Below, piece by piece: positions 1 through 27,788 of a stretch of 64,000 nucleotides of DNA. Made by a program: the position numbers and the translations under genes. Positions within the stretch are counted from its first letter, which is position 1; the number at the start of each line of letters is the position of its first letter. The DNA is from Amoebidium appalachense (Eukaryota; Protista; Ichthyosporea). The notes under the pieces are model-generated. The model was given only the letters and a program-made list of their open reading frames with translations, searched no databases and had not been told where the DNA came from. The stretch is taken from the NCBI GenBank assembly GCA_963693365.1, contig CAVNZM010000003.1:4770472-4834471 (forward strand), given 5' to 3'.

Positions 1-1
1 C

Positions 2-2779
2 GTGCAGCAGCCTCATGGGCACGCTGATGACTTGGACTCTGAGACGAGTAGGGTTTGGCCCCTGGGCAGGTACACTGTCAAGTACCAGTACCCGGAAGAC
101 GTGCATTCAGGCAAGTGGCGGGAGACCACCATTGGGTACTTTGGGACTCCCAAACTTTCACTACTCCGACATAGCTACAAGGCGTTGGTCAGGGGTGGGG
201 TTGAGGCATTTTTCAAGAAGGCCCACACATATCTGGACCCCAACCAGCCACTGGAGCGGTGGGGTGGTCGGTTGCCGGAGGTGGTGAAGGTAGACGTAGC
301 CTACCACCCTGGCTATGAGCACTTTGAGGACAAGTACGGTAGCACGTACGTGTGGAACAGACCTAGGGCACCTCCGCCCCCCTTGCCCGACGTGGCCCCC
401 CTGCCGACCCCACCCCTCCCCCCACCTGTCCCGGCCACACCCCCGGGTCGGGCTCCGGCCATACCGTACCCCCCACCTCCCAAGCCACCTCCACCGCCCA
501 AAACCCCTGCCCCAAACGCACCACGCCGCCGGCCCCATAACGAGCCCGCACCCTCCTTCGGGCCCCTGGCGCCCCATGTGGCCGGCCCCACCATGCCCAC
601 CCCGCCAGAGTCCCTGAAATGGGAGGTGCCTCCCCCGCCCCGTGTCCCCGTGGCCTTCCCCCCAGAGCTTGACCCACAGACTCCCACGGCACCCCACCTG
701 CCGGCCAAGCCCAACGTTCCACCCATACCCTTTCCCCCCTCGACGGGCCGGCCCCTGCAGACGTCCAAGCCGGACCGGTCGAGGCTGCCCGGCAAAGGGA
801 AAGGCACCGGTCTGCCGGTGACACGGACCAGCACAACCCGTTCTGGGTCACTGCCCGGGCCGGTGGCCGTGGCAAGCAAGCACGTCGACGTTGTGGAGCC
901 TGCGGTAGCCCACGGACCCACCATAGCCCCGGTACAACCTCTACACACGCCTCCCGATGACGACGACGACGACGACGAGCCAACGACCAGTGCCTGGCCA
1001 CGTCCACGGCCGGTTACCCTGGCCGGCAACGACCCCAACCGCCCCTCCCCACTCCATGTGGGGGTCTTGGCACCCCATATGACCGGTCCCACCATGCCCA
1101 CCCCGCCAGAGTCCTTGTATTGGAAGGCACCCAAGGAACCAGCCACCCCCATACCCTTCCCCCCGGAGCTCTACCCACAGACCCCCATGGCCCCCCACCT
1201 GCCGGCCAAGCCGGACGGACCACCCATACCCTTCCCGCCGCAGACGGTTCAACCCCCGCCACAGTCGCCCGCCAAAGGGGGGAACGGTACCGGCCTGCCC
1301 ATGGGTCGTAACGGGCCACGGCGGAGGCCGACTGCCCCGGCCATACCCTTCCCCCCACCACTACAACCGGCACCAACGCCGTACCCCCAGTCTCCTGCCT
1401 ACCGTGGACCCGACCCGCCGGCCATGATACCCCCACGGCCGCCAAAGTCTGGCGGGTGGCCGTTGCAAATTTGGGCCGAAGCCTTCCCCCTCGTGCCTGC
1501 GCCCCCAACGCCCGAGTCCCAGGCCCACCCCACAGTCACACCTACACCGACGCCCACCAACGAGCTGGATGTGTGGAAAATGAAACTACCCTTGTCCAAC
1601 GTCACGCTCTTGGACGTCGCAAACGCTCTGGCACCAGCCAATTACGAGTTCCAGGAGCCCATGTGGGACTTTGAGAAAGAGTTGTTGGACAAACACCCCG
1701 AGTATTATCAAGCTCTGCAGGGTTTCGCCCCGTACCAAGCCATCAAATTCGTAGCTTGGGGACTCAAGAAGGAAGAGCCCAAGGCCTCGAGGCAGGCCCT
1801 GTATGAGTACCGTGTGCGAGGGGGGAAGCTTTCAGACCTGCCCCTCGGTATTGACGGCCCCACCACCACCACCACGCCCACCCCCAGCCCCAGCCCCAGC
1901 CCCACCCCAGCAGCCATCGGCTATGACGGTGACGTGACGACGTACCCAAGCACCAAGAGGGCGGTCTCGCAAACAGGGGGTGCTGCCGCTGTGTGGAGAC
2001 CCCCCACGTCCCCCGCCCGACCCGACGAGGAGGGGGTGCTGAGTCCCTTTTGGCAGGGGTTGCGGGAACACCTTGACATGCTCGGGCGGGAGAGCCCGGA
2101 GGAGTTCACAAGGCGGGTGAGGGAGGACCAGACGGGGTGGGACCACCCTGCCGTGGCCTCCTACGTGAGGGGGGTGTTCATGGGGGCAGCACGCCAGCTT
2201 CTGGGCAACGTGGTAAGGGGCCACCATGGTGACGGTGGCCAGCCGGCTATTGCTGACGGCGGTGTTGGTGGCGGTTGCCCGAACCTGCAAGAGGCCGTGT
2301 TGGGGAACCGTGACACCCTCGGAGAACTCCAGAAGGTAGCAAAGGGGGTAGCTCTGCACATGCTGAAGGTTGCTACCAAAGGTAACAACACTGGCGTACC
2401 ACGCCTACCGTACACGCCAACAGCCACGGCTACTGCTCACCCCACCCCCACAGGCACCCCCACGTGGCCACATGGTCCGAGCTTCCCCGTGCCCACCCCC
2501 ACCGGTGCCCCTTCACCCACAGCCACCCCTGGGCTGGCAGCGGCCGTGCACCGTGACCATCATGCCAACTACGGGAGGGGGGACATGCCCAGGCACCCAC
2601 ACCACCCGCACGTGCGTGCACACGTGCACAGGCCAGGGGTTGTGCCGGCCAGCCATGCCGCCGGGTATGTCGAGGGTGGCCCGGTCCCTAAGTCTGCCCG
2701 TGGGGTGTACCGCACCAAGACAGCCAGCAAGGAGAAGAAGAAGAACACGGCCAAGAGGAAGAAGGGTGCCGGCAAATAA
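2..2779 (+). CDS. Large proline-rich protein of the Polinton-like element (5'-truncated), with an internal ~58-aa duplication and a basic C-terminal tail; function unknown
   Basis: 925-aa open frame running off the window start. Duplicated block LAPHxxGPTMPTPPESLxW...FPPELxPQTPxAPHLPAKP...PPIPFPP (~566-738 and ~1067-1238). Ends KTASKEKKKNTAKRKKGAGK. Confidence 0.75.
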   Translation: MQQPHGHADDLDSETSRVWPLGRYTVKYQYPEDVHSGKWRETTIGYFGTPKLSLLRHSYKALVRGGVEAFFKKAHTYLDPNQPLERWGGRLPEVVKVDVAYHPGYEHFEDKYGSTYVWNRPRAPPPPLPDVAPLPTPPLPPPVPATPPGRAPAIPYPPPPKPPPPPKTPAPNAPRRRPHNEPAPSFGPLAPHVAGPTMPTPPESLKWEVPPPPRVPVAFPPELDPQTPTAPHLPAKPNVPPIPFPPSTGRPLQTSKPDRSRLPGKGKGTGLPVTRTSTTRSGSLPGPVAVASKHVDVVEPAVAHGPTIAPVQPLHTPPDDDDDDDEPTTSAWPRPRPVTLAGNDPNRPSPLHVGVLAPHMTGPTMPTPPESLYWKAPKEPATPIPFPPELYPQTPMAPHLPAKPDGPPIPFPPQTVQPPPQSPAKGGNGTGLPMGRNGPRRRPTAPAIPFPPPLQPAPTPYPQSPAYRGPDPPAMIPPRPPKSGGWPLQIWAEAFPLVPAPPTPESQAHPTVTPTPTPTNELDVWKMKLPLSNVTLLDVANALAPANYEFQEPMWDFEKELLDKHPEYYQALQGFAPYQAIKFVAWGLKKEEPKASRQALYEYRVRGGKLSDLPLGIDGPTTTTTPTPSPSPSPTPAAIGYDGDVTTYPSTKRAVSQTGGAAAVWRPPTSPARPDEEGVLSPFWQGLREHLDMLGRESPEEFTRRVREDQTGWDHPAVASYVRGVFMGAARQLLGNVVRGHHGDGGQPAIADGGVGGGCPNLQEAVLGNRDTLGELQKVAKGVALHMLKVATKGNNTGVPRLPYTPTATATAHPTPTGTPTWPHGPSFPVPTPTGAPSPTATPGLAAAVHRDHHANYGRGDMPRHPHHPHVRAHVHRPGVVPASHAAGYVEGGPVPKSARGVYRTKTASKEKKKNTAKRKKGAGK

Positions 2780-2810
2780 TCTACGTCATTAGGCAGCAGC
2801 GGCGGCAGAC

Positions 2811-3032
2811 ATGGCACACAGCACCGAGCACATGCGCATGCACGCTTTGCCCCACACGCTGGCACCCCTCCCCGTACCCCTACCCTACCGCGCCCGACCC
2901 GCACCACAGACCCACCCGTTCTACGGCCCGGGCAACGTCGTCGAGGGGCCAGGGGGGACCATGAGGCCCAGACCCCCCACCTACACACCGTGGCCCGTGG
3001 CCGCCGACCAGAGCTCCTTCCAAAACTTTTAA
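2811..3032 (+). CDS. Small hypothetical viral protein (73 aa)
   Basis: ATG-initiated ORF packed 31 bp after the large ORF, same strand and similar codon style; no recognised motif. Confidence 0.4.
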   Translation: MAHSTEHMRMHALPHTLAPLPVPLPYRARPAPQTHPFYGPGNVVEGPGGTMRPRPPTYTPWPVAADQSSFQNF

Positions 3033-3071
3033 ATATTGTGTGTGCTAGTGTAAACAGCCTGCAGCACCATC

Positions 3072-3263
3072 ATGGAGCTCAACCCCGGCGGGCCCCCCAC
3101 ACGCAAGAGGCCGTTTATCTTCCCGGAACAGAACAACAACCTGAATGTCATGGACGTGTCCACCATACGGGACTTTCGGCAACGTCCCCTGGCCTACACC
3201 GTAAAACTGTCCGGTGTCAACGCCAACAGACCCATTCGTACGGCACCTGTGGTGTTCAAATAA
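3072..3263 (+). CDS. Small hypothetical viral protein (63 aa)
   Basis: ATG in a good context (CATCATGG), tandem with the previous ORFs, non-repetitive composition; no recognised motif. Confidence 0.45.
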   Translation: MELNPGGPPTRKRPFIFPEQNNNLNVMDVSTIRDFRQRPLAYTVKLSGVNANRPIRTAPVVFK

Positions 3264-3395
3264 ACCTGGGCGGGTCGACGGTAGTGTGGGCACGTGCTGG
3301 CACACCCCCACTACCACCCCACGCCTGCCACAACCCCATTCTATTGTGCACAGTGTTGTCTCTAAATGCAGAGCAGGTAGCACCTGGCTACCCGC

Positions 3396-4286
3396 CTACA
3401 GGCAGAACATGTTATGTTCCACTAGCATGTGGTAGTTTTTAAGGTCCCTCTCCAGCCGTGCCCACACCCTATCGCTCTTTACTCTAGTCACTTTGCTTTT
3501 GACCGTGGGCACCAGCCTGGCTATTACTCCCGCGTCCATACCACGCACTAACCCTACCATTTTCACCAACAGGAAGGGGTACCCCACAAAGTTCTTCCGT
3601 GTGTCCTCCTTGTGTCTCCGGTGCCACGACAAGCAAAACTTAAACATGCCCGTCAAGACCTCCAACTGCTCGCACGTAAACCTGGGGAGGGGGTGCCCGT
3701 ACAACCTGTTAAGTATGTAAGGCACGCGTGTGTAGTGTTGGGTGAGTTTGCTCTGTCTCAGCACCCTCCTTGCCTGGTCGGCGTTCTCTATGCCTTGCAC
3801 GCCCCTGAATGCTGCCACCACCCCCTCCTGCATGTCACCCATGCTCGCATTCAGGCCCTGCACCGACTGCAGCAGCTGCTTGAAGTGGTTAATGTGTCTG
3901 TATGGCTGTGACCTCTTTCTGTCCCAGAAGGCCGTGCACCCCTCATACGTCTTCCTCCCCTCCCCGTCGCTGCCCTCCCACCCCCTCCCGTCGTACACCC
4001 AGTCCTCCTCCTCCTCCTCCTCCTCCTCCCCCTCCCCCTCCCCCCTCCCTCCCCCCTCCTCGTACACGTACTCCTGGTCCCCTCCGTCGTGCTCGTATTC
4101 GTCGTGTTCCCCCGTGCACGTCTCCCTCTCCTTGCAGTATGCCCACCAGCACCCTTGTGTCTGTGGCCGTGGCCGTGGCTGTGTGGTGGTGTTGCAGTAC
4201 ATGTCGTAGAGGAAGGGGCACAGGTCTAGCAGCTTCTCAGGGTCCGTGGTGTTGGCCACCATACTTAGCAACGTGTCTTCGTCCAT
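3396..4286 (-). CDS. VLTF3-like (poxvirus A2/NCLDV late transcription factor 3 family) protein
   Basis: Motif series YRHINHFKQLLQSVQG...LRQSKLTQHYTRVPYILNRLYG.PLP...MF...RKNFVGYPFLLVKM...LVPTVKSK...DRVW matches the VLTF3 consensus (Y.R.NHF...L...Q; RKNFL.Y.Y.L.K; PLLKS...D.IW). The N-terminal Cys region is interrupted by an acidic stretch. A-run before the ATG. Confidence 0.85.
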   Translation of the reverse strand: MDEDTLLSMVANTTDPEKLLDLCPFLYDMYCNTTTQPRPRPQTQGCWWAYCKERETCTGEHDEYEHDGGDQEYVYEEGGGRGEGEGEEEEEEEEDWVYDGRGWEGSDGEGRKTYEGCTAFWDRKRSQPYRHINHFKQLLQSVQGLNASMGDMQEGVVAAFRGVQGIENADQARRVLRQSKLTQHYTRVPYILNRLYGHPLPRFTCEQLEVLTGMFKFCLSWHRRHKEDTRKNFVGYPFLLVKMVGLVRGMDAGVIARLVPTVKSKVTRVKSDRVWARLERDLKNYHMLVEHNMFCL

Positions 4287-4299
4287 TTTTTTTCCGTGT

Positions 4300-4333
<34 letters not shown>

Positions 4334-4412
4334 CGGCCGAAGTTCACCTAATTCGTGATGACTGTTTTTGTGTTGGAAAAAAGTGACGTGTCTGTGCACA
4401 CGTGTGTGCCTT

Positions 4413-4649
4413 TTATATGTGCTGGTGCCTGCTCTTTTTGCCAAGCCTCCCGCCCTTGTACACGTGTATGGTTCCGGTGTTGGTGTTGCTTTTGCCGAAG
4501 GGCACATTGGACATGCTTGGTTTTGCATTAAGCTCTGAATTTATTGGCTGCCTCCCCTCGTGCATACGGTGCACGTGGTGTATGCCTAAAAACACCATCT
4601 TTTTCCTCTTCTGCCGGTGACCCCCCTGCCCGTGCACTCTGCACCCCAT
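4413..4649 (-). CDS. Small basic hypothetical protein (78 aa) between PolB and VLTF3
   Basis: ATG at 4649 preceded by an A-run (AAAAATG), as for the VLTF3 gene; K/R/H-rich; no recognised domain. Confidence 0.3.
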   Translation of the reverse strand: MGCRVHGQGGHRQKRKKMVFLGIHHVHRMHEGRQPINSELNAKPSMSNVPFGKSNTNTGTIHVYKGGRLGKKSRHQHI

Positions 4650-4753
4650 TTTTCTTTCTTCTAATGCTAAGTTAACAAACACACCACATAATTTTCCACT
4701 GCTAGACTACCTCCTAACTGACCCCCCTCCCTCCCCCCTACCCCTCCCCCCAC

Positions 4754-7700
4754 TCAAAACTGCAGGTTCCCCTCCGGTGCCGCCCACCCGATGGGGTAGC
4801 TGCGTACACTGCCGTCGGCCGCCTTGAACACCCCCCTCTTGTCGAACGCCCCCGACTGTGTCTTGCGCTGGTCCTTGCTGGCCAGGTGGTAGTTGTGGGG
4901 GACCCCGGGCACGGGCTCCCGCAGCAGCCGGTGGTTGGTGACGCTCACACTCGGCAGCTCGCCGTGCACCAGCATGCGCAGGCTGGGGAGGTTCACCATG
5001 TCGGCCGCCCGGCGGGACAGGGTGATGCCCTTGACCTTCACGTCGGTCTTGCCGTCCTGGGTGCGGTAGGCATACGTCTTGGGGGCCACCCCCACAAACT
5101 CGACGATGGGTGTCGACGTCTCGTTCTTCCAGTTGCCCAGCAAGTCCCCGTTGGTGGAGTCGATGTTGTGGCTGAGGTGGGGCACCCTGCTGTCGAAGTG
5201 GTAGACGATGGAGTCGGTGTCCATGTACACCACCTGCTGGGGGGAGAGGGACCGGAGGGCCCCGTAGAGGTGCAGCCGGGCATGGGCCGTCACGAACGTG
5301 CCGATGGCAATGTTGGCGTAGGAGGGGGGTGGGGCCGTCTCCTTCTTGGGCCGGTACTTGATGGCCACCCTCTGCTCACCGATGGGCTCGACGTCGAGCA
5401 CCAGCAGGTTGGGGTTCGTCACCAGCAGCCTCAGCCTGTCGACGTCGTCGACAAACTCGATGGTGTCCAGCCCTGCCCTCTGCACCAGCTTGCCCCAGAG
5501 GCTGTTCAGAAACAGCTTGCTGATGGTACGCAGGGCCGGGTTGGGCTCGAACTCGTGGGCGGCCACCGTGATGCCGTAGTGTTCCTTGAACAGGTGCACG
5601 AGGGCGGGGATGTCGGCCGGATCTACGGTGGTGCTGGTGAGCTTCACCTTCAGGAACGTCTGCACGTACTTCCGGAAGAGGTTCTTGGTGCGTTTCTTGA
5701 AGTGCACCACGTCGTACACGTCGAGGATGGTGTACCCATCACGCACGGCCACCTTCAGCTCCTCCGTCGTCCACGTGCCCACCAGTGCCCTCTCCTCGTC
5801 CGTGTGTGTGCACAGTGCACAGTGTGTGCTCACGTACCCTGGGGTTGCCGTCCTCGTCCATGCAGGTGGCCCGGGCCTCCTCCTTGCTGCTGCAGGCCCG
5901 GCACAGCACAAAGCCCAGCTTGTCGTACCCCTGGGCACCCGTCATACGCACAGGCAGCACGGGGATGAACAGGTCCTTGGGGGGGAGCACCCTCACACGT
6001 GCAACACCAAAGTACCCCTTGGTCCTGGCCTGGGGGGAGCCGGGGGTCATACGGCACGTCTTGTCGAGCCTCTCCTTCAGCACCTGGGCATCCGTGACGA
6101 TGGCCGTGGGGTGGTCCTCCGTCTTGATGGGCAGTGACGTGAACCACTGTGACTTGCCCACCGGCATGTACTTGTCAATCATCACGTACGGGTAGAGGGA
6201 GGTGACGTCGACGTACTTGAGCCCGGCCTCCGGCCAGTCCTCCTCCTTGACCTCGATGTGACGGGTGATGACCTCCGTACGGCCACCAAAGAAGGCATCA
6301 CGGAACTGCACCGGGCCCGTGGGCACGGGGGCCACCCTGCCGGTGCCCTCCCTCCGTGCCGCCTGTGCTGCAAGGGCAGCCTTGACCTCGGGGCTCTGCC
6401 TCAGCCTGTCCCACCTGCACTCCCACATGCTCTGCACCTTGTGCCCCTGGGCACGGATGTACCTCTCGTGGGCCATGGTGCTGTCGTAGGCCTCCCTGGC
6501 CGGCCTCTTCACCACCCTCATCGTCAGATCCTCGTGCCTGTTGCAGTCGGGGCACCCATGGAACACACACCCGTGGAAGAAGTAGTGGGTGCACGTGCCG
6601 TCGTCGTGGTTGGCCTTGGCATCGGCCGTGGCCCTGCCGTGGGGGTCGTACCCGGTGGCCACGTGCCGTGCAACGTCGTCTGGCCCCACCCCCAGGCCGT
6701 GGGTGACGTAGTCGATGTACTCCTGCTCCTTCTTGCTGCTGTTCACGTTGCCCATGGTCTGGTCACGCATCACGGCCACGTCCTTGGGCATGGCCTGCGT
6801 GATCCAGAAGTGCATGGCGAGGGAAGCAAGGGTGACGCACGTGAAGGGGTCGATGCCCGTCAGCTCGATGAGTTTCGACATGAAGGCCTTGACCACCTGC
6901 TGCAGCAGCACCACATCCTTGACACAGTAGTCCTCGCACTGCTGGGCAATGTCGTAGCACGTGCCCGCCGGTGCCTGCCCCTGCAGCCGTGCCTGCTCCT
7001 CCCGCCACCACTGCATGAAGGCAGCATGCTGCTTGGGCTTCATGTCCTGGGCCCCAAAGTCCTCGGGCCCGGGGAAGGGGATGTGGCCGGCCTTGAAGTT
7101 GGCAAACGTGGCTGCATGGTGGGGGAAGTGGCCCTTCGTCTCCTGGCACCCCATGGCCTTGCCGGCGTCCGACAGCGACATGGTGAGGAAGTTGAGGGTG
7201 TCCACGAACGTCAGCTCCACCACCGTCGTGCGGCTGCCGTCCCCCCTCTGCCCCCCGTGCCTCCTCTTCCGGCCGGTGCCTGCTGCTGCTGCTGCCTACT
7301 GCACATCACCATGGCCATCACCATGGCCATCACCATGGCCATCACCATGGCCATTGCCATCGTGGCCATGGCCATGGCCATCGGCACCATCACCATCACC
7401 ATCACCATCACCATCCACCCGCATGGGCACGGGGGCTGCTGGTGCACCGGCATTCTTGACGTAGTGGCGTATACGGCAGGACTTGATCTTGCTGTTGGCC
7501 ATGATGGGCACGTACACGTAGTCCTGGCTGCCCACCACCCTCTTGGTCACAAAGTGGAAGTCAAAGCCACTGCCGTTGTGGCAGTACACCCGGCCGCCGG
7601 CATGGGCTGGTGTGTCGAACAGCCATGCCACCACCTTGTCAATCACGTGGTGGTGGTCCTCCATCAGCACATCCCACCCGTTCTTGCCGTCGGCCGAGTC

Positions 7701-10409
7701 CTCCGGCCAGAAGACGATGGGGGTTGAGGGCTGGCCGTCCATTGGCTCGACGTACATGGCCACTGCATGGTACACGATGTGGATGAAGTGGGGGTTTTCG
7801 GCCGTGTGGTCGGGGGCGGGCACGGGCATGGTCTCGAAGTCCAGCACAATGTCCCTGATGGGCTGCCGGGTCTGCTTCCACGGCCCCCTGCTGCCATCGT
7901 CGTCGGGCACGTGCCGTTTGCACACGTGTGCACCCACCCTGCCGTCGGCACCATCCACCCTGGCCCTCTGCCGTGCAGGTGACTCTCCCCCCCCTCCCCC
8001 TCCCCCTCCTCCCCCTCCTCCCCCTGCCCATGCTCGTTGGAGTAGCACGCCACCCTGTCGCACGCCGTGCCGTCTGCATCCGTGTGCGTGCACATGTACA
8101 CACGTCGCTGGTCACGCTTGCTGCGTATGAGGCACGTGTGGTTGCCGGGCATGTACCCCCCACACCCCTTGCAGTCGTAGTCGGTGCACAGGTGCTGTGT
8201 CCACGTGTCGTCCTTCTTCTTGCCCCCGTGCTCACCCCCGTCATCCCCCTCCCCCTCAGACATCTGCATGAGGTCGATGCCATCGCTGTTGTCATCATCG
8301 TCACCTTCGTCGTCCGACGAGTCGGCAAGGCCGGGTGGGGGGTCTGAGTCGGCATCCTCGGCATCCGAGTCCTCCTCCGTGTCCGTGCCCCAGCCCCAGT
8401 CCTCCCCCTCGTCGTTGGCTCCCGCATCTGCACCTGCATCGTACCCCCCTTGCTCCTGGGCGGTGTGCAACCGACGTAGCCGGCACACGCTGGCGTACTT
8501 GAACTTGTAGAGGAACCGGCCGGCAGGGTTGCCCGACACACACACCCTACGGGCATCATCCCCACTGCCAAACACCCGGTACCCCTGCAGACCGTGGGTG
8601 CACGTGGCCAGCCGGCACCAGAACACGGTGTCACAGAAGGATTGTTGCCGGCCGTCGGCCCTGGCCCCCACCCCCTTGAGCCTGGTGCTGTGGTTGGCCA
8701 TGCACTTGGCTGAAGGGAAGAGACCACAGCAGTCGTCACAACGGTAAGGCCATGCCTCCTCCCCTGCCTGTGCAAGCTGCAGACGGCGCTCGGGGGTCCA
8801 CACACAGGCGTTGGCCTGGTCGTTGCGGTCCCCCTTTGATCCACAGTTCTCACACCGGTTCACACAACGGTGCACCCCCATGTTCTTGGCTTGCACGGTC
8901 TGGTTGCAGTGGAAGCAGGTGCTGAGGCTCCGACGTGCCTCCCCCGTGTGGTTGTCGTGTCGTAGGCGCTCAACGGTGGTGCTGACACTCGAGGTGATGG
9001 CCGTGAAGTGCCCCAGCTTCTGGGAGTGGGCCAAGTACATGGTGCACAGCTTGGAGGGGGGTAGGGCCGTGCTCAGGTCCCCGTACCGGCGTAGCACCCT
9101 GCCCTTGCTGTCCATGTCCACCACCACCAGCCGCAGGCGGGTCACTGACTCGGGCTGCTCGGCAATGGCCGTGTTGAGGGCATCCACGGCTGCACCCAGC
9201 TCATCCACCGTCAGGCCGTCCTCTGCAGGCACAGGCAGGTCGTACTTGGCCCACAGCACGTGGGTGGCCCTCACCAGTCTCCGCAGGTAACGGTCCTTGA
9301 AGTGGCTACGGTAGTCTGTGGGTGGGAACAGCAGGTTGCACACCCCACAGCCGGCAGATCTGGACCTCCCCAGGGTCGTGTTGCCGACCCCCACCACCTC
9401 CTCCGGGGTCAGCAGGTGGCACAGCACGTGGTGGTCCTTGCGATCCATGAGGTTGCCCCCCTTGCCCAGCACCTTGCGTGTGTGCTCGGTGGGCAGGTTG
9501 GCCTGCTCGTTGCCATTGGCTGCCTTCTTGAGCCACATCACCATGCAGTACACCAGGCACAGCTGGGCACAGTTGGGGCCGTAGGCAAAGCCGTGAAGCT
9601 GCTGATGGTCCTGGCAGGTCTCCCCTGTCACCTGTGGGTCGTCGGTGGTGCAGGCATCCTGCACCAGGGCGGTCACATCCACCACGGCCTTGGCCTCCAC
9701 CAGATCCTGCAGCCATCGTGCATTCACCCCCGTGGTGGTGGACAGGGTGCCGCAGGCCCCCCTCCTCACCATGTCCTTGGGCCGGGCCACTGTCAGATGC
9801 ACGCTGGATCGGCCATCCATGAAGGTCTCGGCTGCACTCTGGGTACGTTGACGTATGTTCTCCATCAGCTTGAGCACCACGGCGTTGACATCACCATTGA
9901 ACACGTCCATGGGGCCGGCCGTAAACACCCTCCGGTTGGTGACATCGGCATTGGGGTTGCCGTCATCCCCCACCTGGTTGTCCACACCGTTGGCCTGCAC
10001 GTGCAGGCTGATGATACGCACAATCAGCATGTCCCCCACCTGCACATCTGCACGGGCAATGGCATCGAACAGCATGGCAGCAAAGAACTGGGGGAACTCG
10101 GTGACGTCAAGGGTGCGCAGGGGTTGGTACTCGAGGGTGTGGCCACGCACACCCAGTCCCCGTGCCTGCATGTCATCGACACGGGAACGCAGCCGCCAGT
10201 TGCCCTCGGCGGGCATGGCAATGATCTGGGGGTCATCGGGGTGGTTGATGGGGGCGGGGGCCGGGGGGAGGCCGGGGAGGGGTGGGGGTGGGGGGTGGTG
10301 GGGCCAACATGGCCTGCAGAAACGGGTGGGCTTGCAGGACCTGTTGCGGGTCGGCATCCAGTGCCCGCAACAGGTCATCTTCAAACTCTTCCTGGCTCTC
10401 TCTGAACAT
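4754..10409 (-). pseudogene. Protein-primed family B DNA polymerase (pPolB), ~1880 codons when reconstructed, interrupted at 4 sites
   Basis: Exo I LDFET (~7830), Exo II HNGSGFDFHF (~7550-7582), FVDTLNFL/KGHFPH, Exo III YCVKDV, motif A YVDVTSLYP (~6190-6216), LCRAC...CTHTDEERALVGTW, motif B KLFLNSLWGK (~5490-5520), motif C YMDTDS (~5212-5228), PKTYAY, KVKGIT. Lesions: extra base in the G6 run 10290-10295, missing base in the C8 run 7987-7994, in-frame TAG at 7296-7298, 7-bp duplication at 5809-5822. Likely start ATG 10409 (MFRESQEEFEDDLL). Confidence 0.93.
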
Positions 10410-10647
10410 CTTGAATGGTAACCTTAGATCTCAGGCTGTAATCTTATAAATCTCAAGTATCAATCTACTTAATAATTACTAGGCTAAGCCTGGCTGTGCC
10501 AGGGCAACGCCTCAATAAAGAACGGTATGCAAAATAACAAGCCTGTGCCTGTGCAATAAATCTCCAAAGCAAACATCTTGCAAAAACAACGTCGGTACGT
10601 GTTTGTTTGTGTGTGTGTGTGTGGTCGCGGCGGCCGCCTGTGTACCT

Positions 10648-10860
10648 AAGGCGTCCAATAAGAGACCCAGATAGACCGATCCGGGCGCTCATTGGACGCC
10701 TTGGGGATGGAATGTGCTGTCCTTAATGCTCATTGGACGCCTTGTGCGGCAATTTGCTTTTTTGAGCCGAATTATCATTGGCCGCCCTGCGCATCCGTAA
10801 TACCATTGGACGCCTTGTACATGGAATTCAGAATTCGAATTCCCATTGGACGCCTTGCGC
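10648..10860. promoter_or_regulatory. Array of CATTGGACGCCTT (CCAAT-box-containing) motifs upstream of pPolB
   Basis: Direct copies at 10690, 10731, 10776 (degenerate), 10804 and 10844, plus one inverted copy AAGGCGTCCAAT at 10648-10659. Confidence 0.6.
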
Positions 10861-11050
10861 AAACCTTCGCATTCCTTTGATCCGCACTTGTGTACATGTA
10901 CGCACCACATGTACGCGTACACGTACGCGTACACGTGACACGCCCTCTCTCTCTTTAATTGTTTAATCATTTAATTAAAACAAAACCACGTGCTCTGCAC
11001 GTGTTTTACACACACACACACACACACACAGTGTGTGCACGTGCTCATGT

Positions 11051-11220
11051 ACATATATCCACCCATATCACATATATCCCATATCGCGATATGTGTACAC
11101 AGATATCACATATCTCATATTCACATATCCCATATCCTAAGGGGTGCGGGACCGCGTGAATGTGACGTCACTTGTGACGTCACCATTCACGGGGTGCCGC
11201 GCCCCTTATTGTAGTGTACT
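11051..11220. repeat. Putative terminal inverted repeat region: CATATC short repeats plus a 71-bp imperfect palindrome with two TGACGTCA motifs
   Basis: Repeated CATAT(A)TC units at 11051-11137. Palindrome TAAGGGGTGCGGGACCGCGTGAATGTGACGTCAC-TT-GTGACGTCACCATTCACGGGGTGCCGCGCCCCTTA at 11138-11208. Confidence 0.65.
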
Positions 11221-12020
11221 TTACCTGTGGCTCAGTGCCATGGCCACCCTTCCACTGACACACCACTAGTACTAGCCAGCCTAATCACCAGTTTCTTAGT
11301 GTAACAGGGAAAAATGAGCGCGGTGGGCTTTCCGTGTGTTGTTTCACAACCCTGTGTGCGCTTTTCGTTCCTCTTGCAGCTACTGGAGGTATACTATTTG
11401 TGTTTGCTCAAACCCCCCCCCCCCCCCCCTCCCCCCTCCACACACACACACACTCACACACATACATACACTGGTGTCCTTTGTCACTTGTCGCTTTATT
11501 TCGTAGCTTTGGCTTTTTCAGTTCTATTGGTGGTTATGTAGCCTGTGGCTGCACGTTGCCTTCATCAACGGATCAATAAACCCGCGTCAAAAGAAAAAAG
11601 AAAAATTAACCCGTGCTCACAAAAAACAGTGGATATAAACTACATCCAATTCCTGTCACATGCGCACATCTAAAAGCATTGAAAGAGAAGAGTGATCCCA
11701 GTCAACATTCTGTCCCACAATCACAGCCAACTCTTTGTTCATTCACTTCCAGCTGCTTTAACTCCTGTTGATCGGGTGACCAGCCACACAAAATGCATGC
11801 CACTATGGTGGATGCACACCTCCTCATTTGCCAGAAATGCCCACAGATCCCTTTGATTATGGGCAAATGGTCACCTGTAACAGTTGCTGAAGAGTCCACT
11901 TGCCTTCTGCAGCCCCCCCCCCCCCCCCCCTCCTCCCCCCCTCCCCTCCACACACACACACACACACTCACCTACCCACCCCACGACTGCTTCTTGAAGT
12001 ACGTTCGGCACCCTTTCGTC

Positions 12021-12062
<42 letters not shown>

Positions 12063-12181
12063 AGAGGGGAAGGAGAAGGGGGGAGAGGAGGAATAGAGTT
12101 CTGAGGAGTTTGGGGTTCATCATGAGGGAGGGGAGTGTGACAAGGGAATTGCAGTGGTGGTGTGTGCGTATTTGTTTTTTT

Positions 12182-12227
<46 letters not shown>

Positions 12228-12983
12228 GCAGATGCCACCCACCTGCCCACCCATCCACCCACCCATGGCCACCCACCCACCCACCACCTTCACCGCATCT
12301 ATATTTATAACCTTTTACACGATTTCTGCATTTTACACACATGATAGCAGGCTACCCCTGGCCTTTTTAACCCCTTTACCGTGTAAATATAGTATTATAT
12401 ATAATAGATCGGTGAAACAGGGTTACATTTTCCACACATACTATGTGTGCACGTTTGATCGCTTGGTCCTACCCCCTGCGGCTTACTTGTGTGGGTGTTT
12501 TCATACGGGAGGGAGAAAGCTGAGGAGCTGCCGTTATGGGATTCTGAAACCCTGTTTGGGGGGGGGGGGGGGGGGGGGGGGGAGGGCCCGATACAATTCT
12601 GGACCAGTAATATGCAGGTAGAGTTAACCACATGGGCAGCACATTGTACATGCACATGAACTCCCCATACCCACCCTTTCACCGTTTATTATCTGATCTA
12701 GGTACCGTTTTTTCCGAAAATTGGCAATGCTGTGTGCAAGTTTGATAAGCAAGTGGGAATAACCCATGCGGTTTGGAAGAATGGGGAGCCACCGTGTTAT
12801 TGTGTTTTTTAAAGCTCTTTTACAAACTCCATTTACTCTCCCTCCCCCTCCCCCCTTTCCCCCTCCCTTCCCCCCATCCTACGGCACCATATCTTTTTGA
12901 AACTCGACATTCTGTCCCACAGTACAGCCACTTTTTTGCGCATTCACCAGCAGCTGACTTCACTCCCGTCCGTTGGTGACCCC

Positions 12984-13623
12984 TGTAGACATGGTTGTGT
13001 ACATTCACGTGCACACCGTGCTGTTCCCCCACAACCAGTCTACGTGCCTTTGTGTCTTCTCGCCAGAGGCTGGAATAGAGCCTCGGAAGCAGCTACCAAT
13101 CGGCTGCATCACTTTTAGCTGTATTCCTTATTAGGGCAGTTGCTCTGCACCTTAAGTATGCAGTTAGGAGCGATGCAAAGAACGTGAACACTTTGCCAGC
13201 ATGTATCTTAGGTGTACGGCACACACTGTGTGCCGTAGACACTTTATTGGGCACTAGACATACACATGTAGCACTGTAGTATAACTTGAAGCTAGATTAT
13301 GATCACCCAGGAGAAGCTCATGTACTCATGTATATGTCATGTACTTTATATTAAGTAGGGCCACATGCCTATTGGCTGTCGCCTTACAAAAGTATGCGAG
13401 CAGTGCTCTCCGGACCGGCGGAAACCAAGGGACTATAAAAGGCTGGTACATTCCAGACTTGGGTCACTTGGGCGGGGCTGCGTGTCCGAGTAAACGTTAC
13501 ACTAGTCGTGCGGTGTCAGACTAGCTGTAGCACCCGCTTTCTTGTCTCTATACTTACGTGCATCTCCTAGCCTGCATATGTTAACTAGGGCATAGTATTA
13601 GTGTATACACACCCTGGTTTTCA
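12984..13623 (+). repeat. 5' LTR (640 bp)
   Basis: TGTAGAC...TTTTCA; TATAAAA at 13434; near-identical to 22146-22785 (one substitution seen, 13562 A vs 22724 T). Confidence 0.98.
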
Positions 13624-13624
13624 C

Positions 13625-13640
13625 TGGCGACCGCAGGCAG
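13625..13640 (+). other. Primer binding site, consistent with a tRNA-Arg 3' end
   Basis: TGGCGACCGCA begins 1 nt after the 5' LTR. It is complementary to a tRNA ending ...UGCGGUCGCCA (a GACCGCA acceptor stem occurs in eukaryotic tRNA-Arg). tRNA identity is inferred. Confidence 0.7.
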
Positions 13641-14067
13641 TCGAAGGTCTAGAGCGTTGGCATTAGCGTTTTTAGGCTTTCGGGTGATCACAATCAAGCG
13701 ATTTTGCACATTCTTTACGGTAAACAGTCCGGAAATTTCTCCTAGTTACAACTTTGTGATTGGTTGGGATTCGCGCTGTGTTCCTGTGATTGGATACCTA
13801 AAATTTGTTGGCCACATTTGGGTGTTTGCGCCATCAACTTGGTATCCGGCGTGCTACTGCGAAGTCCCGACTTTCACCGTGAACGTGGGTGGCTGCCAGC
13901 GTAGCTGGAGCTGCTTGCACTGTGCTTTGCAAGTGCAACCGGTGGTACTTTGTGACAGTGACCACTGGGAGGGTAGGCTGCTGTGTTGGGGCCGTGGGCA
14001 CGACCAGTAGGGAACCCTTTTGACACGTTGGTGTGAGCCACTGTGGTGGCAAGAACGTGCAGCTGAG

Positions 14068-16260
14068 ATGGCTGGCACTGGGGCTGAGAGAGGCGGGCGC
14101 CGTTCCCGCAGTCGCAGCCGTGAGCCTGGCCGGCGTTCGGCCACGCCTGAGGGCGGTCGGGAGAGTTCCCCTTATGATTCTGGTGAGTGTGCTGATGATT
14201 CCCGTGTGTGTATGGCTCCGCCCATGTCTGGGCTGGGTGACGATACAGAGACACGTGGCATACACACACCTGGCCGTCGTGTTATGCCTGCTACTCAGTT
14301 GCGTGGGCGCAGGACTCTTCGGGGCACTAGGCCTATTAATGTTGCTGCTTTCCATGTTGAGCCTGAGTCTGATGATTCTGAATGGGAGCAGAATGGGTCT
14401 AGTGAGAGCTCGGGGTCTGAGAGTGACGAGGGTGGTGACTCAGATTACGAACCCCAGTCACCTGTGCGCTCTCCTGGTGTGTGTGATCGTGTGGGGGATG
14501 GGGATGACGTTAGTGAGAGTGATGGTTCTGAGTCTGAGCCTGATCTGACTGTACCCCCACCTGCACGTGACCCTAGCACACCGGAACGTTCTTTACTTGA
14601 TCATGCCGCTGAGGTTATGGGGGTAGATGCTAGCAGCACGGAAGAAGTGTTGCGCCGGCAGACTGAAGCATTGCGTGCATTCGAAGCCCTGAGAGAAGCT
14701 GGGTGGGTTCCTGCTAAAAAGAGGGGTGCACGTGGTGTTGGCAGTCAGGCTGGTGGGAATAAACAGGCAGTTGGCAGTCAGGGTGAGACCAAGGAGGGTG
14801 ATGTTTACTTACGGAATAACTATTATGGGGTTTTGGCAGATGACCAGCGGGGATACAACTACAACCCGCCCACCCCTGGCCGTGAGTACCGTTCACCATC
14901 ACCTGACCGCGATGCCGACCGTTCCCGCTCCCCTCCCTCGCGGCACCGTTCTCCGTCTCATCGTAGCCGGTCCCCTGATCGTGTGCGTGAGCGCGAGCGC
15001 GGTGGTGAGCGCAGCAAGGAGCGTGGGTGTGTGCACGAGCGCACTCGCTCGCGCAGCCGCTCTCCCCAGCGCAACCGCACTCCAGAACAGGAGTCTTCTC
15101 GCGCACGCACCCGCGACCATTCGCCACGGGGTCGGGACTGTACAACACCATCTAACTGTGGGTGTAACCACCGGGGTTGTGGGCCGGTGCAGCCGTGGCC
15201 TTTTGGTTTCCCGGCCATGCCTGCAGGGGGGCCCAACACTAACATGAGTGGGCCCATGATGACCCCCTTCCCCATGTTAATGTTTGGTTATCCGCAGCCC
15301 AACGTTGGGGCAGCAGGTACCAACACTCAGCCCACAGATAACAAGGTGGAGAAGGAGAGAAAGACCCGTTCATCTAGCAAGCGTAAGTCTTCTGGCCGGC
15401 GTGCACGTACGCCTGTGTCTGAGGAGGACTGCAGCGAGGATGACGGGGCGAGCCAGAGCAGCTTGGAGAGTGAAGATGACAACCACCCGCCAAAGAAGGT
15501 GAAGTCTGCACGTGATTTGCTCCTTGCTTTGATGCCGGAGCATGATATGGCATGGCGTAAACCGTTGGTTGTGCACCCCTCTCGCCACTATGCGCCTCTG
15601 ATCACTGCAGATAAGGTGCCCCAGTTTAAGGGTGATATGAGTGATACGCGCACGGTGGTTGAGTGGCTCTCTGAGCTTGCAAGCTTGTTTTTCAGGGTGG
15701 CTGGTGTGCCTGTGCATGATGCTGTGCCTTTAGTTGTCTCGTGCTTTCCTCCTGCAAGCCCCGCACGCAATTGGTTTTCCAAATTTTGCCGCACGCACCC
15801 TAATGCCACGTTCGAAGCTTTTGCGCAAGAAGTGGTTAAGGAGTTCCATGGTGAGCACGTTTTGGAAAAATGGCAGGGCAAGCTGGACGAGTTGAAGCAG
15901 GGAAACATGGAGGTTTCGGAATTCTATACACAGCACGCTAGCTTGTGGGCGCGAGTGTATCCACATGGCACGGATGAAGCGCGTTTGATTGATTTTTCGC
16001 ACAAGTTGAACGCTGCCGCATTTAGTGATTACCAAAAATGGGCGGTGAAGCAGAGGCGTGCGAAAAAGTGCCTAACCATCCAGGATGCACTCGTTCACTT
16101 ATCGGAAAAAGAGCGCGACCGCAAAAGCACACAGAAACACACAAAGGGTACAGCCGGTGTGTTTAATGTGCAGCAGTCGGCTATGGTGGCTGTGCAGGAG
16201 CAGGCAGCAGCATTGGGCTTGGATGTGCCGTCGTTTATTGCTCTGGTGGGGTCCGGATGA
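14068..16260 (+). CDS. gag: Gag part 1: long acidic and RS-rich N-terminus plus retrotransposon capsid-like domain
   Basis: First ATG 14068. RSRS-rich segment, then VPQFKGD...EWL...SPARNWF...TFEAF...LDELKQGNMEVSEFY (retrotransposon Gag signature). TGA overlaps the next ATG (ATGA 16257-16260). Confidence 0.88.
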   Translation: MAGTGAERGGRRSRSRSREPGRRSATPEGGRESSPYDSGECADDSRVCMAPPMSGLGDDTETRGIHTPGRRVMPATQLRGRRTLRGTRPINVAAFHVEPESDDSEWEQNGSSESSGSESDEGGDSDYEPQSPVRSPGVCDRVGDGDDVSESDGSESEPDLTVPPPARDPSTPERSLLDHAAEVMGVDASSTEEVLRRQTEALRAFEALREAGWVPAKKRGARGVGSQAGGNKQAVGSQGETKEGDVYLRNNYYGVLADDQRGYNYNPPTPGREYRSPSPDRDADRSRSPPSRHRSPSHRSRSPDRVRERERGGERSKERGCVHERTRSRSRSPQRNRTPEQESSRARTRDHSPRGRDCTTPSNCGCNHRGCGPVQPWPFGFPAMPAGGPNTNMSGPMMTPFPMLMFGYPQPNVGAAGTNTQPTDNKVEKERKTRSSSKRKSSGRRARTPVSEEDCSEDDGASQSSLESEDDNHPPKKVKSARDLLLALMPEHDMAWRKPLVVHPSRHYAPLITADKVPQFKGDMSDTRTVVEWLSELASLFFRVAGVPVHDAVPLVVSCFPPASPARNWFSKFCRTHPNATFEAFAQEVVKEFHGEHVLEKWQGKLDELKQGNMEVSEFYTQHASLWARVYPHGTDEARLIDFSHKLNAAAFSDYQKWAVKQRRAKKCLTIQDALVHLSEKERDRKSTQKHTKGTAGVFNVQQSAMVAVQEQAAALGLDVPSFIALVGSG

Positions 16261-16517
16261 CTAAAAATCCGTGGAAAACTCCCCCACAGAAGCCCAGATA
16301 CGGTGCATCGGGCAGCAGTGTCGTTTGCTACGGCTGCGGGAAGCCGGGACATCGCAAAGGTGATGCGGAATGCCCGGCTGCTAATCGCCGCTGCAACGTT
16401 TGCAAGAAAGTAGGCCACTATTCCGATTCCCGGTTGTGCAAGGGAGAGCCCAAGGGTAACGGCAAGCATCAGCAGGGCCGTGACCCAGACAAGAAGAAGC
16501 ATTCACACCGCAAATAG
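16257..16517 (+). CDS. gag: Gag part 2: nucleocapsid with two zinc knuckles
   Basis: CYGCGKPGHRKGDAEC and CNVCKKVGHYSDSRLC; -1 frame relative to Gag part 1; same frame as pol; ends at TAG 16515-16517. Confidence 0.88.
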   Translation: MTKNPWKTPPQKPRYGASGSSVVCYGCGKPGHRKGDAECPAANRRCNVCKKVGHYSDSRLCKGEPKGNGKHQQGRDPDKKKHSHRK

Positions 16518-19500
16518 GAACTCGCGGGGGTAAAAGGCGCGGTGCCGGGGGTAGTTGATGTGCGTAGCGCATTTTTGCACATCGGAGAGGATAGTGTACA
16601 AAGTAGTGAAGTGGTTAACGAGAATTTTGTGCACGACCCTTCTCCCCTGGCGGGAAATTGCAAGGGAAATAAAGCAATCACTCGAAAAACTGTGTCTTTT
16701 GCCCCCACCCATATTGTGATCCCGTCCACCCTAGGTGCAACCACCCCCACAGGTGTTGGGGAGGGGGAGGGTGCACCCGGGAAGGAGGGTGTTATGTCGG
16801 TTCAGGATTTTGCGGATTTGAAGCAGGCACGGGCAGAGGGGTTGGCGGGGCTGGCGGGGCGCGTGCATCCCACCCCCAAAGAACCATCTGTGTGCAAAGT
16901 GTCTGCTAAGGGCTCTACCTCTTGTTTGCTTGCCACTGTGAGGTTGCATGGGCACCTAGTTACGGTGGTTGTGGATACCGGTGCTAGCCATTCATGCTTG
17001 CAATATGATTTTGCGCTGAAATTACCATTTGCTACGCGGAAGCGCATTTCGCCGGTTCACAACTTTAGTGCTGTTGGTGCTAGCGGGGACACCTTGCCAT
17101 GTGCAGGCCGTGTGGGTTTGCACCTGCAGGTGCCCCACACAGAATGGAGCCATGTGCAAAACTTTCATATTTTGCGTGGCCTCCCCTATGCAGCCTTGCT
17201 AGGCATGGATTTCTTGTTGGGTTTCGATGCACAGATTGACCTGTTGTATAAGCACTTGTTGCTCAGGCCTGCCCACGGCCAGGCAGAGTGCTATATGCCT
17301 GTTTGGTGGCTTGGGGCGGGGGTGCGGGGTGGTGAGGTGGCAACACTTATCACCACCACCGGCGTGCATCTCCCTCCTTTCAGGTCGAATGTGGCTTTGT
17401 GCTCGATGAAGGATGGGGGGGAAGGTTTGGAGGCTGGTGTGACGGGTGTTGTCGTACCCAGACCCACCTCTAACACCGATATTCCCTTCCACCCTGCGCA
17501 TAGTGTGCAATCACTCTTGTCTGTAAATGGCAGCCTCGGCTGCAAGGTGCTGTTAACAAATCTGACTGAAAAGCATGTGTATTTGAAGCCTGGTACCCAG
17601 GTGGCAGCACTAGAGCCATTGGTTGAGGGTGATATGCTCACTGTTTTGGTCGATGTGTCCGGGTCCCCAGCTGCAGAGAAGAATGGTGTGGAGGCCGTTG
17701 GGTCAGACTCACCGTCAGGCTCTGTTGGTGGACAAGTGTTTGCTGCTGCTGCGCCGGCGGCTGCAGACAAACCTCCGACGGGTGGAGCCACAGTGGGGGG
17801 ATCAGGGACCACTGGGGCTACTGGGGACAACATTTTTATTGGTGAGGGTGGCCGCGTACACGCTAGTGTGCCTGCACGTGTGTACAGGCAGGGGCGCGCG
17901 CGCACGGAGACTGTGCAGCCGTGGCTGTCAAAGAAGAAGGCCAGAGGCCGACTTGCTTTTGCAGCTAGGGCCAGGCACCCAGGGTCGCAGGCGCCTGGTG
18001 CTCCAGCCCCTACCAGCACTAGTAATGTTGCAGGTACCGGGCAGGGGCACGTTTCCTCTCCTCAAAACGAACATGTGCATTCCGATCGGAATCTCGAGTT
18101 CTCATTGGCTGAGGGTACCTTCGGGCCGGCCGCTTCATCCTCTGAGGGAGGAGTTGGGCCGTGGCATATAAGGGGGGACACTCAGGGGCAGTGTGAGGGA
18201 GTATCTGCCGGGGATACTGAAGCATCTGGCCCAGGGGAAGAGACTGATGTGCAGTGTGCAGGGGCCCGCCATGCACGAGGTCAGTCTGGTGGTAGTCAGC
18301 CGGGCGCACCAGGAGCCAATCAGAGTGCAGCAGGGGTGAGCCACGTGCCCACAGCCTCTGCATCTGATGCCGACTCAGGGGGCACCGAGGATGAATTACC
18401 ACCGGGCGTGGAGGACCCAGAGACTATCCCCCTTCCTGATCTGACACCTGCGGAGAGCAAGAGATTCGCTAAGCGCATTCGGAGGTTGCTTAGCAGATGG
18501 AAGCACGTGTTTTCTGCACACGAGCATGACTATGGCAAGTCCAATGTGGCAACGCTGAAGATAGAGTTAACCACAAATGAACCACAGTATCGGCCTCCAT
18601 ACAAAATTCCACACCATATCCGGGATCAAGTGTGGAAGCAACTTCAAGTATGGTTGGCTGGGGGGGTCATTGAGCCGTCCACCTCTCCCTACTCTGCACC
18701 CATGGTCTTAGTGCGTAAAAAGGATGGGAGCGTAAGAGTGTGCCTGGATTTTCGGAAAATAAATTCATGCACTGTGAGGGATGGCTACCCCCTACCCCGC
18801 ATAGACACTTCTCTCGATGTGTTGCGTGGGGCGCGCTGGTTCAGTGTGTTTGACCTCTATGGCGGCTATCACCAAATTGAGGTGGATCCAGAAACACGGC
18901 CTAAGTTAGCTTTTACTACGCCGTGGGGTCACTATCAGTTTTGTCGCGCACCCTTTGGGGTTACGAATATGCCGTCTGTATTCAGCCGCGCCATGAATAC
19001 CGTATTCGCGGGCATGCTGTGGGTTCATTTGCTTGTGTATATCGATGACCTTCTTCTGTTCACCCCGGATTTGGAAAGTCACTTAACCCTCTTAGAAGAA
19101 GTTTTCAGGCGGCTGTCCGCGGCTGGTCTAAAGCTAAAGGGGTCCAAGTGCCACTTTTTCCGGACAGAGGTGGCGTATTTAGGCCATCGTGTGGGCAGAG
19201 ATGGTCTTAAGGTTGATGACGGGAAAATCGCTGTGATACGCGATAAGCAGGCACCCACTTCTGTGTCCGAATTAAGGAGTGAATTGGGTCTGTTTTCGTA
19301 TTACAGAAGGTTTGTTCCGAATATGAGTGACCTGGCCGAGCCGCTAACGCGCATGTTGGGTGATAGCCCACAGGATAAGCAGTTGCGCAAAAAGATTCAC
19401 GGGAATGAGCCCCCCACATCTAGTGCGCGACGGAAGCGGAATGGCACGGCCAAGGAGAAGGCTAGGCAAGCCCGTACTGCTGCAGCAGATGAAAGCACAG

Positions 19501-27748: not shown

Positions 27749-27788
<40 letters not shown>

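What the first reader, a model, noticed from the sequence alone, without database searches (positions are those of the whole stretch)
1..11220. Endogenous Polinton-like virus combining a giant pPolB, a VLTF3-like transcription factor and unrecognisable ORFs
Seen: an intron-less GC-rich block with pPolB and VLTF3 motifs, a 925+ aa Pro-rich ORF, three small ORFs and terminal-type repeats, set in an intron-rich, low-complexity host genome. Known: pPolB defines Polintons/adintoviruses, and VLTF3 is an NCLDV core gene also found in some Polinton-like elements. Inference: this is a divergent, possibly undescribed lineage of endogenous virus in a protist host, with capsid, ATPase and integrase genes expected to the left of the window.
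Basis: partly seen in the sequence, partly recalled or inferred. Interest (0 to 1): 0.8.

Follow-up and report, generated by a model that had tools for sequence, protein, structure and literature searches.

The report
Integrated adintovirus avoiding host-methylated CGC/GCG words
This is the right arm of a many-copy integrated DNA virus-like element with a broken polymerase gene, likely one of the already published adintoviruses of the protist Amoebidium, and its genes strongly avoid the three-letter DNA word that this probable host methylates most, which suggests adaptation to escape silencing.

Summary
The element is real: a protein-primed polymerase (PF03175) broken into four pieces, an intact VLTF3 (PF04947, E 8e-10), a 925+ aa Pro-rich orphan ORF and two small ORFs. 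Public-run contigs put its end at 11,215 (not 11,220), with at least five other flanks, so it is integrated at many sites. The gene combination is published: Amoebidium adintoviruses carry VLTF3 plus PolB (PMC11244446). The host is inferred, not shown, and the left arm could not be reached.

Two features were not found in the papers searched. (1) CGC/GCG is the most avoided word in the viral genes (159 against 346 expected; odds 0.46), also at synonymous sites. Host DNA (0.98), a neighbouring Gypsy (1.04) and 39 other pPolB loci (0.62-1.59) are all less depleted or not depleted. CGC/GCG is the context Amoebidium methylates at about 70%. (2) This VLTF3 keeps a cyclin-box-like core but has lost the four-cysteine zinc ribbon held by 127-134 of 137 aligned rows.

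Verdict: a known kind of element with a testable twist.

The parts
2..2779 (+). ORF1, open at the 5' end, 925+ aa. Pro-rich (19.8%), internal duplication at 501-bp spacing, basic C-terminal tail (13 K/R in the last 40 aa). Predicted virion core or accessory protein by analogy only.
   Evidence: no hit in Pfam, PHROGs, the protein database for residues 520-800 (76) or the ESM Atlas (29, 78)
2811..3032 (+). Small ORF, 73 aa, unknown function
   Evidence: in-frame codon score 0.08 against -0.12 to -0.56 in the other five frames
3072..3263 (+). Small ORF, 63 aa, with AATAAA overlapping its stop (3259)
   Evidence: codon score 0.40 against -0.21 to -0.86; motif position
3396..4286 (-). VLTF3-like transcription factor, 296 aa, intact. 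Acidic N-terminal part, zinc ribbon lost, cyclin-box-like helical core. TATAAA at 4417(-).
4754..10378 (-). [quoted passage not shown] Order: N-terminal region, candidate OTU Cys/His motifs, Cys-rich zinc fingers, exonuclease, palm.
10421..11215 (.). Non-coding terminal region, presumed right TIR. Four copies of a 13-nt CCAAT-containing repeat (10702-10856) face the polymerase; two TGACGTCA sites at 11163 and 11175. Not CGC/GCG-depleted.
11206..11215 (-). True end of the element; reads 5'-ACTACAAT on the minus strand
   Evidence: 9 of the 25 listed contig pieces stop at 11,215 and 2 at 11,216; at least five different flanks follow

Best explanation
This is the right arm of a many-copy integrated Polinton/adintovirus-type element with a broken polymerase and an intact VLTF3, likely a member of the published Amoebidium adintoviruses, and its genes avoid CGC/GCG, probably through selection against the host's default methylation. 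Shown: the gene content of the arm, the end at 11,215, several insertion flanks, the polymerase breaks, the CGC/GCG avoidance and the loss of the VLTF3 zinc ribbon. Inferred from Polinton biology: an intact copy would replicate as linear DNA primed by the terminal-protein domain of pPolB at the ACTAC end, be packaged by capsid and ATPase genes to the left, and integrate through an integrase. Inferred from the sequence: CCAAT, CRE-type, TATAAA and AATAAA motifs point to transcription by host RNA polymerase II in the nucleus. VLTF3, taken from a giant virus, would act there as a late-gene switch, binding through its cyclin-box core and recruiting the host machinery through the acidic N-terminus in place of the lost zinc ribbon. 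A nuclear life would expose the viral DNA to the host's CGC/GCG methylation, which would favour synonymous loss of that word. This copy is a decayed remnant.
For: PF03175 and PF04947. Four pieces colinear with a homologue profile, iE 5e-100 to 6e-9. End and flanks. Element contigs at depth 1,702-2,589 against 26-37 for flank contigs in run X3 (the tool warns that depth is not a copy number). Published match of VLTF3 plus PolB in Amoebidium adintoviruses, with the statement that other polinton-like viruses do not normally encode VLTF3. Amoebidium methylates CGC/GCG at about 70% and other CG at about 20%. CGC is the most avoided of the trinucleotides, z -13.1, next -6.3. C at fourfold sites is 17/146 where it would create CGC, against 28/113-54/156 before other G-starting codons; Gypsy shows 23/141 against 15/103-29/167. 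Odds 0.46 (0.37-0.55) in viral genes, 0.98 (0.90-1.06) in host DNA, 1.04 (0.94-1.16) in Gypsy; 0 of 39 other pPolB loci fall below 0.62. VLTF3 model pLDDT 86.7; its best structural matches are Rb pocket, cyclins and TFIIB, Z 6-7.9; the family profile's zinc ribbon matches archaeal TFIIB, E 7.5e-4.
Against: The host is not identified by any direct test; LSm3 shows only a eukaryote, with human the best PDB match. Host DNA in the window is not CGC/GCG-depleted (0.98): this argues against passive decay, but it also means the host's methylation context is not visible in host DNA, so the link to Amoebidium is partly circular. The 39 control loci are poor controls: many are distant (about 29% over short stretches) and the closest are AT-rich. 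The terminal region is not depleted (1.2, 36 CG sites). VLTF3 also occurs in about 30% of two Zephyrvirus PLV clusters, so the gene pair is not unique to Amoebidium. Z under 8 for a helical fold may mean only a common arrangement, and Foldseek found no PDB match at E<=0.001. Promoter motifs were not tested against chance. The OTU domain has motif support only; the profile did not align that stretch. No capsid, ATPase, protease, integrase, Dam, left TIR or TSD was seen.
Confidence: 0.7

Rival explanations
1. Same element, but CGC/GCG was lost passively by deamination of methylated C over many cycles of integration, not by selection.
For: The element is CpG-poor overall (0.64). Of 6 transitions private to this copy with T or A in the window, 4 lie at CpG (24 variants typed from the 40 shown of 644), so methylation-type decay seems to act on it.
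Against: All 4 are at non-CGC/GCG CpGs. TGC is hardly enriched (1.02-1.10). Host DNA and Gypsy show no CGC/GCG loss.
Confidence: 0.3
2. The element is a virophage-like parasite of the host's giant viruses; its ribbon-less VLTF3 taps or blocks giant-virus late transcription, and the word avoidance reflects a giant-virus methylase or nuclease.
For: PMC11244446 notes that many polinton relatives are virophages and that giant-virus insertions carry DNMTs. The VLTF3 lacks the zinc ribbon, as a decoy might.
Against: The avoidance is of a trinucleotide, not a restriction-type word: GCGC 18 against 19 expected, CCGG 178 against 171; CGCG is lower (6 against 15). The upstream motifs look like polymerase II elements (untested against chance).
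Confidence: 0.2
3. An undescribed lineage in a different protist host that gained VLTF3 independently.
For: No close relative was found: polymerase pieces at 23-37% identity and on long branches; best VLTF3 44%, unnamed; VLTF3 in some Zephyrvirus PLVs.
Against: The gene pair, the intron- and TE-rich host and the avoided word all fit Amoebidium. The lack of close hits is expected if that genome's proteins are not in the databases; the window's own VLTF3 was not returned.
Confidence: 0.13
4. A fragment of a giant-virus (NCLDV) insertion, a capsid-less linear plasmid, or an assembly artefact.
For: VLTF3 is an NCLDV core gene; no capsid gene is in view; the junction is covered by one contig with only 30 letters on the element side, one short of the tool's bridging rule (run X9).
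Against: The polymerase is of the PF03175 protein-primed type with Polinton-like domain order; the end is sharp and has many flanks; the four metagenome VLTF3 loci are only 25-30% identical and hold no match to the pPolB pieces.
Confidence: 0.05

Closest known systems
Amoebidium adintoviruses (Sarre et al. 2024, PMC11244446; read: parts 1-2 of 9 of the text, passages, all text of the supplementary PDF; figures not seen)
   Same: VLTF3 together with an adintovirus-like family B polymerase; many copies, some degenerate; intron- and TE-rich host.
   Different: Dam, capsids and the 30-kb length could not be checked. CGC/GCG avoidance, the ribbon-less VLTF3 and the exact end motif were not in what I read.
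Mavericks/Polintons/adintoviruses, class Polintoviricetes (PMC8502044 sections 7-8 and passages; PMC8097293 passages; 10.1101/2024.03.18.585575 passages)
   Same: PF03175 pPolB (Starrett's Alpha class) with candidate OTU Cys/His motifs, next to a terminal region; intronless; integrated at many sites.
   Different: Carries VLTF3; longer polymerase; end reads 5'-ACTACA, not (AGT)2 or (AG)3, closest to the rare (AC)3A type of Monopterus; 63% GC.
Zephyrvirus PLV clusters VC123/VC126 (10.64898/2026.06.19.733378, passages and section 5)
   Same: Small viruses with VLTF3 in about 30% of members; some of the group use pPolB.
   Different: The paper found no endogenous examples; assignment rests on capsid and ATPase genes, which could not be reached here.
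Mriyaviruses (PMC11253617, passages)
   Same: Small, lack RNA polymerase, keep VLTF3, predicted to be nuclear.
   Different: They lack a DNA polymerase and use a HUH nuclease; this element has pPolB.

Membership tests
Polintoviricetes (Maverick/Polinton/adintovirus) | Protein-primed PolB (PF03175) | tested here: met
   broken in this copy
Polintoviricetes (Maverick/Polinton/adintovirus) | N-terminal terminal-protein and OTU domains in PolB | tested here: inconclusive
   Cys 274 and His 457 motifs resemble those of homologues; profile match to the N-terminal region is weak, iE 0.014; single-sequence fold failed, pLDDT 35.9
Polintoviricetes (Maverick/Polinton/adintovirus) | Defined end, integrated at many sites | tested here: met
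   (end at 11,215, at least five other flanks)
Polintoviricetes (Maverick/Polinton/adintovirus) | Short repeated end motif such as (AGT)2, (AG)3 or (AC)3A | tested here: inconclusive
   end reads ACTACA, an imperfect AC-type repeat
Polintoviricetes (Maverick/Polinton/adintovirus) | [quoted passage not shown] | not testable with these tools
   left end lies outside the window; no genome held; 0 hits for the end in viral contigs
Polintoviricetes (Maverick/Polinton/adintovirus) | Major and minor capsid, packaging ATPase, adenain, rve integrase | not testable with these tools
   none in the arm; no close relative with flanks retrieved
Amoebidium adintoviruses | VLTF3 together with adintovirus-like PolB | tested here: met
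   definition
Amoebidium adintoviruses | Dam methyltransferase, capsid genes, about 30 kb | not testable with these tools
   only 11.2 kb is in the window
Amoebidium adintoviruses | Host is Amoebidium | tested here: inconclusive
   indirect only: gene pair, avoided word, TE- and intron-rich host
Amoebidium adintoviruses | Hypermethylated in non-CGC/GCG contexts | not testable with these tools
   no methylation data; 4 of 6 private T/A transitions at such CpGs is a weak hint
VLTF3 family (PF04947) | Conserved helical core | tested here: met
VLTF3 family (PF04947) | Four-cysteine zinc ribbon before the core | tested here: not met
   1 of the 4 Cys columns is kept; each column holds Cys in 127-134 of 137 rows
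Mriyaviruses | No DNA polymerase | tested here: not met
   pPolB present; definition

The most novel reading that the evidence does not exclude
An integrating nuclear DNA virus has recoded its genes, at synonymous sites, to shed exactly the trinucleotide its host methylates by default, while host DNA and a neighbouring retrotransposon have not. It runs late transcription on host polymerase II with a giant-virus VLTF3 that has swapped its TFIIB-type zinc ribbon for an acidic activation region. This would be a sequence-level record of a virus-methylome arms race in a close relative of animals.
Probability: 0.35. Interest if true: 0.7.

Novelty: new member of a known kind. Interest (0 to 1): 0.42.

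Why it matters
What remains is useful. The CGC/GCG avoidance can be tested at once with existing assemblies and methylomes: do integrating viruses adapt to a host's particular methylation code, and does word avoidance reveal a virus's host and nuclear lifestyle? The ribbon-less VLTF3 is a natural variant for asking how a giant-virus late factor works without a viral RNA polymerase.

Tried and rejected
No whole genome is held, so the left arm was sought indirectly. Viral contigs: polymerase piece, 0 relatives among 7 pattern matches; VLTF3, 0 of 3 and 0 of 108; end motif, 0 matches; polymerase alignment, 39 loci of 452 matches, all distant, none with a tblastn match to VLTF3, ORF1, the 63-aa ORF or the N-terminal polymerase piece. 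The 73-aa ORF was first searched in a wrong frame; the corrected search of all 43 loci gave no hit. Metagenome contigs: 4 VLTF3 loci of 578 matches, 25-29% identical, no pPolB match. VLTF3 word search: 0 of 4,105 candidates. ORF1: nothing in Pfam, PHROGs, 7,993 scored candidates, two Atlas searches or phage DNA; these blanks show neither absence nor novelty. The single-sequence fold of the polymerase N-terminus failed and was not searched. Foldseek against PDB gave no match at E<=0.001 for VLTF3. Rfam: 0 matches in 1-13,000. No RNA holder was listed, which says nothing about expression. Runs X3 and X2 had no cover at 11,218-11,340; a hole proves nothing. Polymerase trees gave unstable sisters among other long branches and cannot place the lineage (rows over 40% gapped were dropped, leaving 115 and 102 taxa). 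Names for the 10 VLTF3 relatives looked up were uninformative: two 'hypothetical protein', the rest unnamed. Rejected: an end at 11,220; a four-base restriction site as the main cause of the avoidance; ORFs 4268-4528 and 10692-10970 as genes. Earlier-findings look-ups by place, by sequence and by the first word set returned nothing.
Full report
Observation. The window starts inside a GC-rich block (0.56-0.67). It holds a 5'-open 925-aa ORF (2-2779, +), two small ORFs whose codon use fits the element's (2811-3032 and 3072-3263), a 296-aa VLTF3 (3396-4286, -; PF04947 E 8.1e-10) and a family B polymerase on the minus strand. The polymerase is in four pieces, split by two frameshifts and a stop. 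Three pieces hit PF03175 (E 6.5e-24, 5.5e-12 and 0.019), and all four fall in order on a profile of 115 homologues, so they are one gene of 1,875 codons' span. Homologues found among proteins of 908-2,590 residues have a median of 1,315 and a maximum of 1,697, so the gene is long, partly through low-complexity inserts. Contigs of three runs differ from the window at the break near 5,810 (table 4), so that break looks copy-specific; the other two breaks were not among the rows shown.

The end. No genome is held, so I laid public-run contigs on the window. In one search, 9 of the 25 listed pieces stop at 11,215 and 2 at 11,216 (31 more were not shown), and the loose-end table gives at least five different flanks. 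Vertebrate Mavericks end in (AGT)2, (AG)3 or rarely (AC)3A (PMC8097293, passages); this end is an imperfect AC type. One X9 contig covers 11,186-11,340, with 30 letters on the element side, one short of the tool's bridging rule. In run X3, single element contigs have depth 1,702-2,589 against 26-37 for flank contigs; depth is not a copy number, but with the flanks it shows a multi-copy family. The left end, TIR and TSD are untested.

What it is. The best polymerase hits are PF03175 proteins at 31-34% identity; the 8 of 115 that name an organism are from animals. Trees on two separate pieces put the window on a long branch with unstable neighbours. [quoted passage not shown] A later preprint reports VLTF3 in about 30% of two Zephyrvirus clusters with no endogenous examples (10.64898/2026.06.19.733378, passages and section 5). 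I put the chance that the host is Amoebidium at about 0.85. This is inference from the window's own features: the gene pair, an intron- and TE-rich host and the word bias below.

CGC/GCG avoidance. Amoebidium methylates CGC/GCG at about 70% and other CG at about 20%. In the viral genes 150 of 666 CG sites (0.23) lie in CGC/GCG against 0.53 expected; in the Gypsy element 264 of 501 (0.53) against 0.48. CGC is the most avoided trinucleotide (159 against 346, z -13.1; next -6.3). Shuffling synonymous codons within genes shows the same: CGC 18 against 47, 4 against 22 and 9 against 24 in three polymerase pieces, but 112 against 119 in Gypsy pol. At fourfold sites C is used in 17 of 146 cases where it would create CGC, against 0.25-0.35 before other G-starting codons; Gypsy shows no such gap. 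After masking, the odds are 0.46 (0.37-0.55) for viral genes, 0.98 (0.90-1.06) for host DNA, 1.04 (0.94-1.16) for Gypsy and 1.2 for the terminal region. All 39 other pPolB loci lie at 0.62-1.59, though they are distant, imperfect controls. GCGC is at expectation once the trinucleotide bias is allowed for (18 against 19), so a four-base restriction site is not the main cause. TGC is hardly enriched. These results favour selection over passive decay but do not prove it. Against my reading, host DNA itself does not show the bias, so it cannot confirm the host's methylation context. I found no report of this avoidance in the parts of PMC11244446 read, in passages of PMC12344493, or in the listings of searches; unseen figures, the unread 7 of 9 text parts (searched by term only) and closed preprint supplements may bear on this.

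VLTF3. An exhaustive HMMER search found 482 relatives at E<=0.001, the best at 44% and 36% identity, both unnamed. In a tree of 60 of the 150 listed hits these two group with the window (support 0.93 and 0.98) on a long stem. Four Cys columns hold Cys in 127-134 of 137 aligned rows; the window and its closest relative keep one, the next relative none. The model (pLDDT 86.7) matches viral VLTF3s and, more weakly, cyclin-box proteins: Rb pocket, cyclins, TFIIB, Z 6-7.9, rmsd 3.4-5.8, about 90-120 residues (middling Z; Foldseek found none). The family profile's ribbon matches the archaeal TFIIB ribbon at E 7.5e-4. From my own knowledge, the TFIIB ribbon docks on RNA polymerase. A ribbon-less factor with an acidic N-terminus would have to work differently, either as an activator of host polymerase II or as a decoy for a giant virus. 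One search was seen as a listing only, so I cannot say whether the TFIIB likeness of VLTF3 is in print.

Mechanism. Polinton pPolBs have the order terminal protein, vOTU, exonuclease, palm (10.1101/2024.03.18.585575, passages); the window has Cys and His motifs in the expected order but no stronger support. An intact copy would replicate by protein priming at the end, be packaged and integrate. CCAAT repeats face the polymerase, TATAAA precedes VLTF3, and AATAAA follows the 63-aa ORF and the polymerase; these were not tested against chance but fit host polymerase II in the nucleus, where host methylation acts. ORF1's basic tail recalls the pX-like C-terminal domain of adintovirus accessory proteins (PMC8502044 section 8); this is a resemblance only.

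Verdict. A real, decayed arm of a known kind of element, probably of a published family. Interest 0.42, resting on the CGC/GCG avoidance and the altered VLTF3.

Noticed in passing
window 12984-22786 (+): Very young, apparently intact Ty3/Gypsy chromovirus: 641-bp LTRs at 99.8% identity, flanked by CCCC, gag (14011-16260) and pol with a chromodomain (16518-22076).
   Followed up: partly
window 11285-11718: A second, very high-depth repeat just right of the element; a related ~110-bp repeat recurs at 11705, 12904, 22945, 24024, 25535 and 26926. The Gypsy sits inside the 12904/22945-type context.
   Followed up: no
window 10851-11718 and 1-3472, run X15: Run X15 has depth piled on the element's end (2,906) and more on ORF1 than on the polymerase. 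Its library type is not on record; unexplained.
   Followed up: no
window 31499-31609 (-): Exon of host LSm3; best PDB match is the human protein, E 1.5e-11.
   Followed up: partly
window about 48200-55900 (-): Exons that look like a host gene with CCCH zinc finger and Smr domains (recognised from memory, not searched).
   Followed up: no
window about 34800-35900: Overlapping ORFs in a higher-complexity stretch, possibly a decayed retroelement fragment (not searched).
   Followed up: no
window 27772-28561: Tandem duplication of about 400 bp at 86.5% identity.
   Followed up: no
window 1-10420: GATC is somewhat under-represented in the viral genes (20 against 28 expected); of note because the published family encodes a Dam methyltransferase.
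   Followed up: partly
P0116: Unnamed 281-aa VLTF3 at 44% identity with the same ribbon-less layout, on a contig of up to 17.8 kb: probably a second clade of the same virus group, whose gene neighbourhood could not be fetched.
   Followed up: partly
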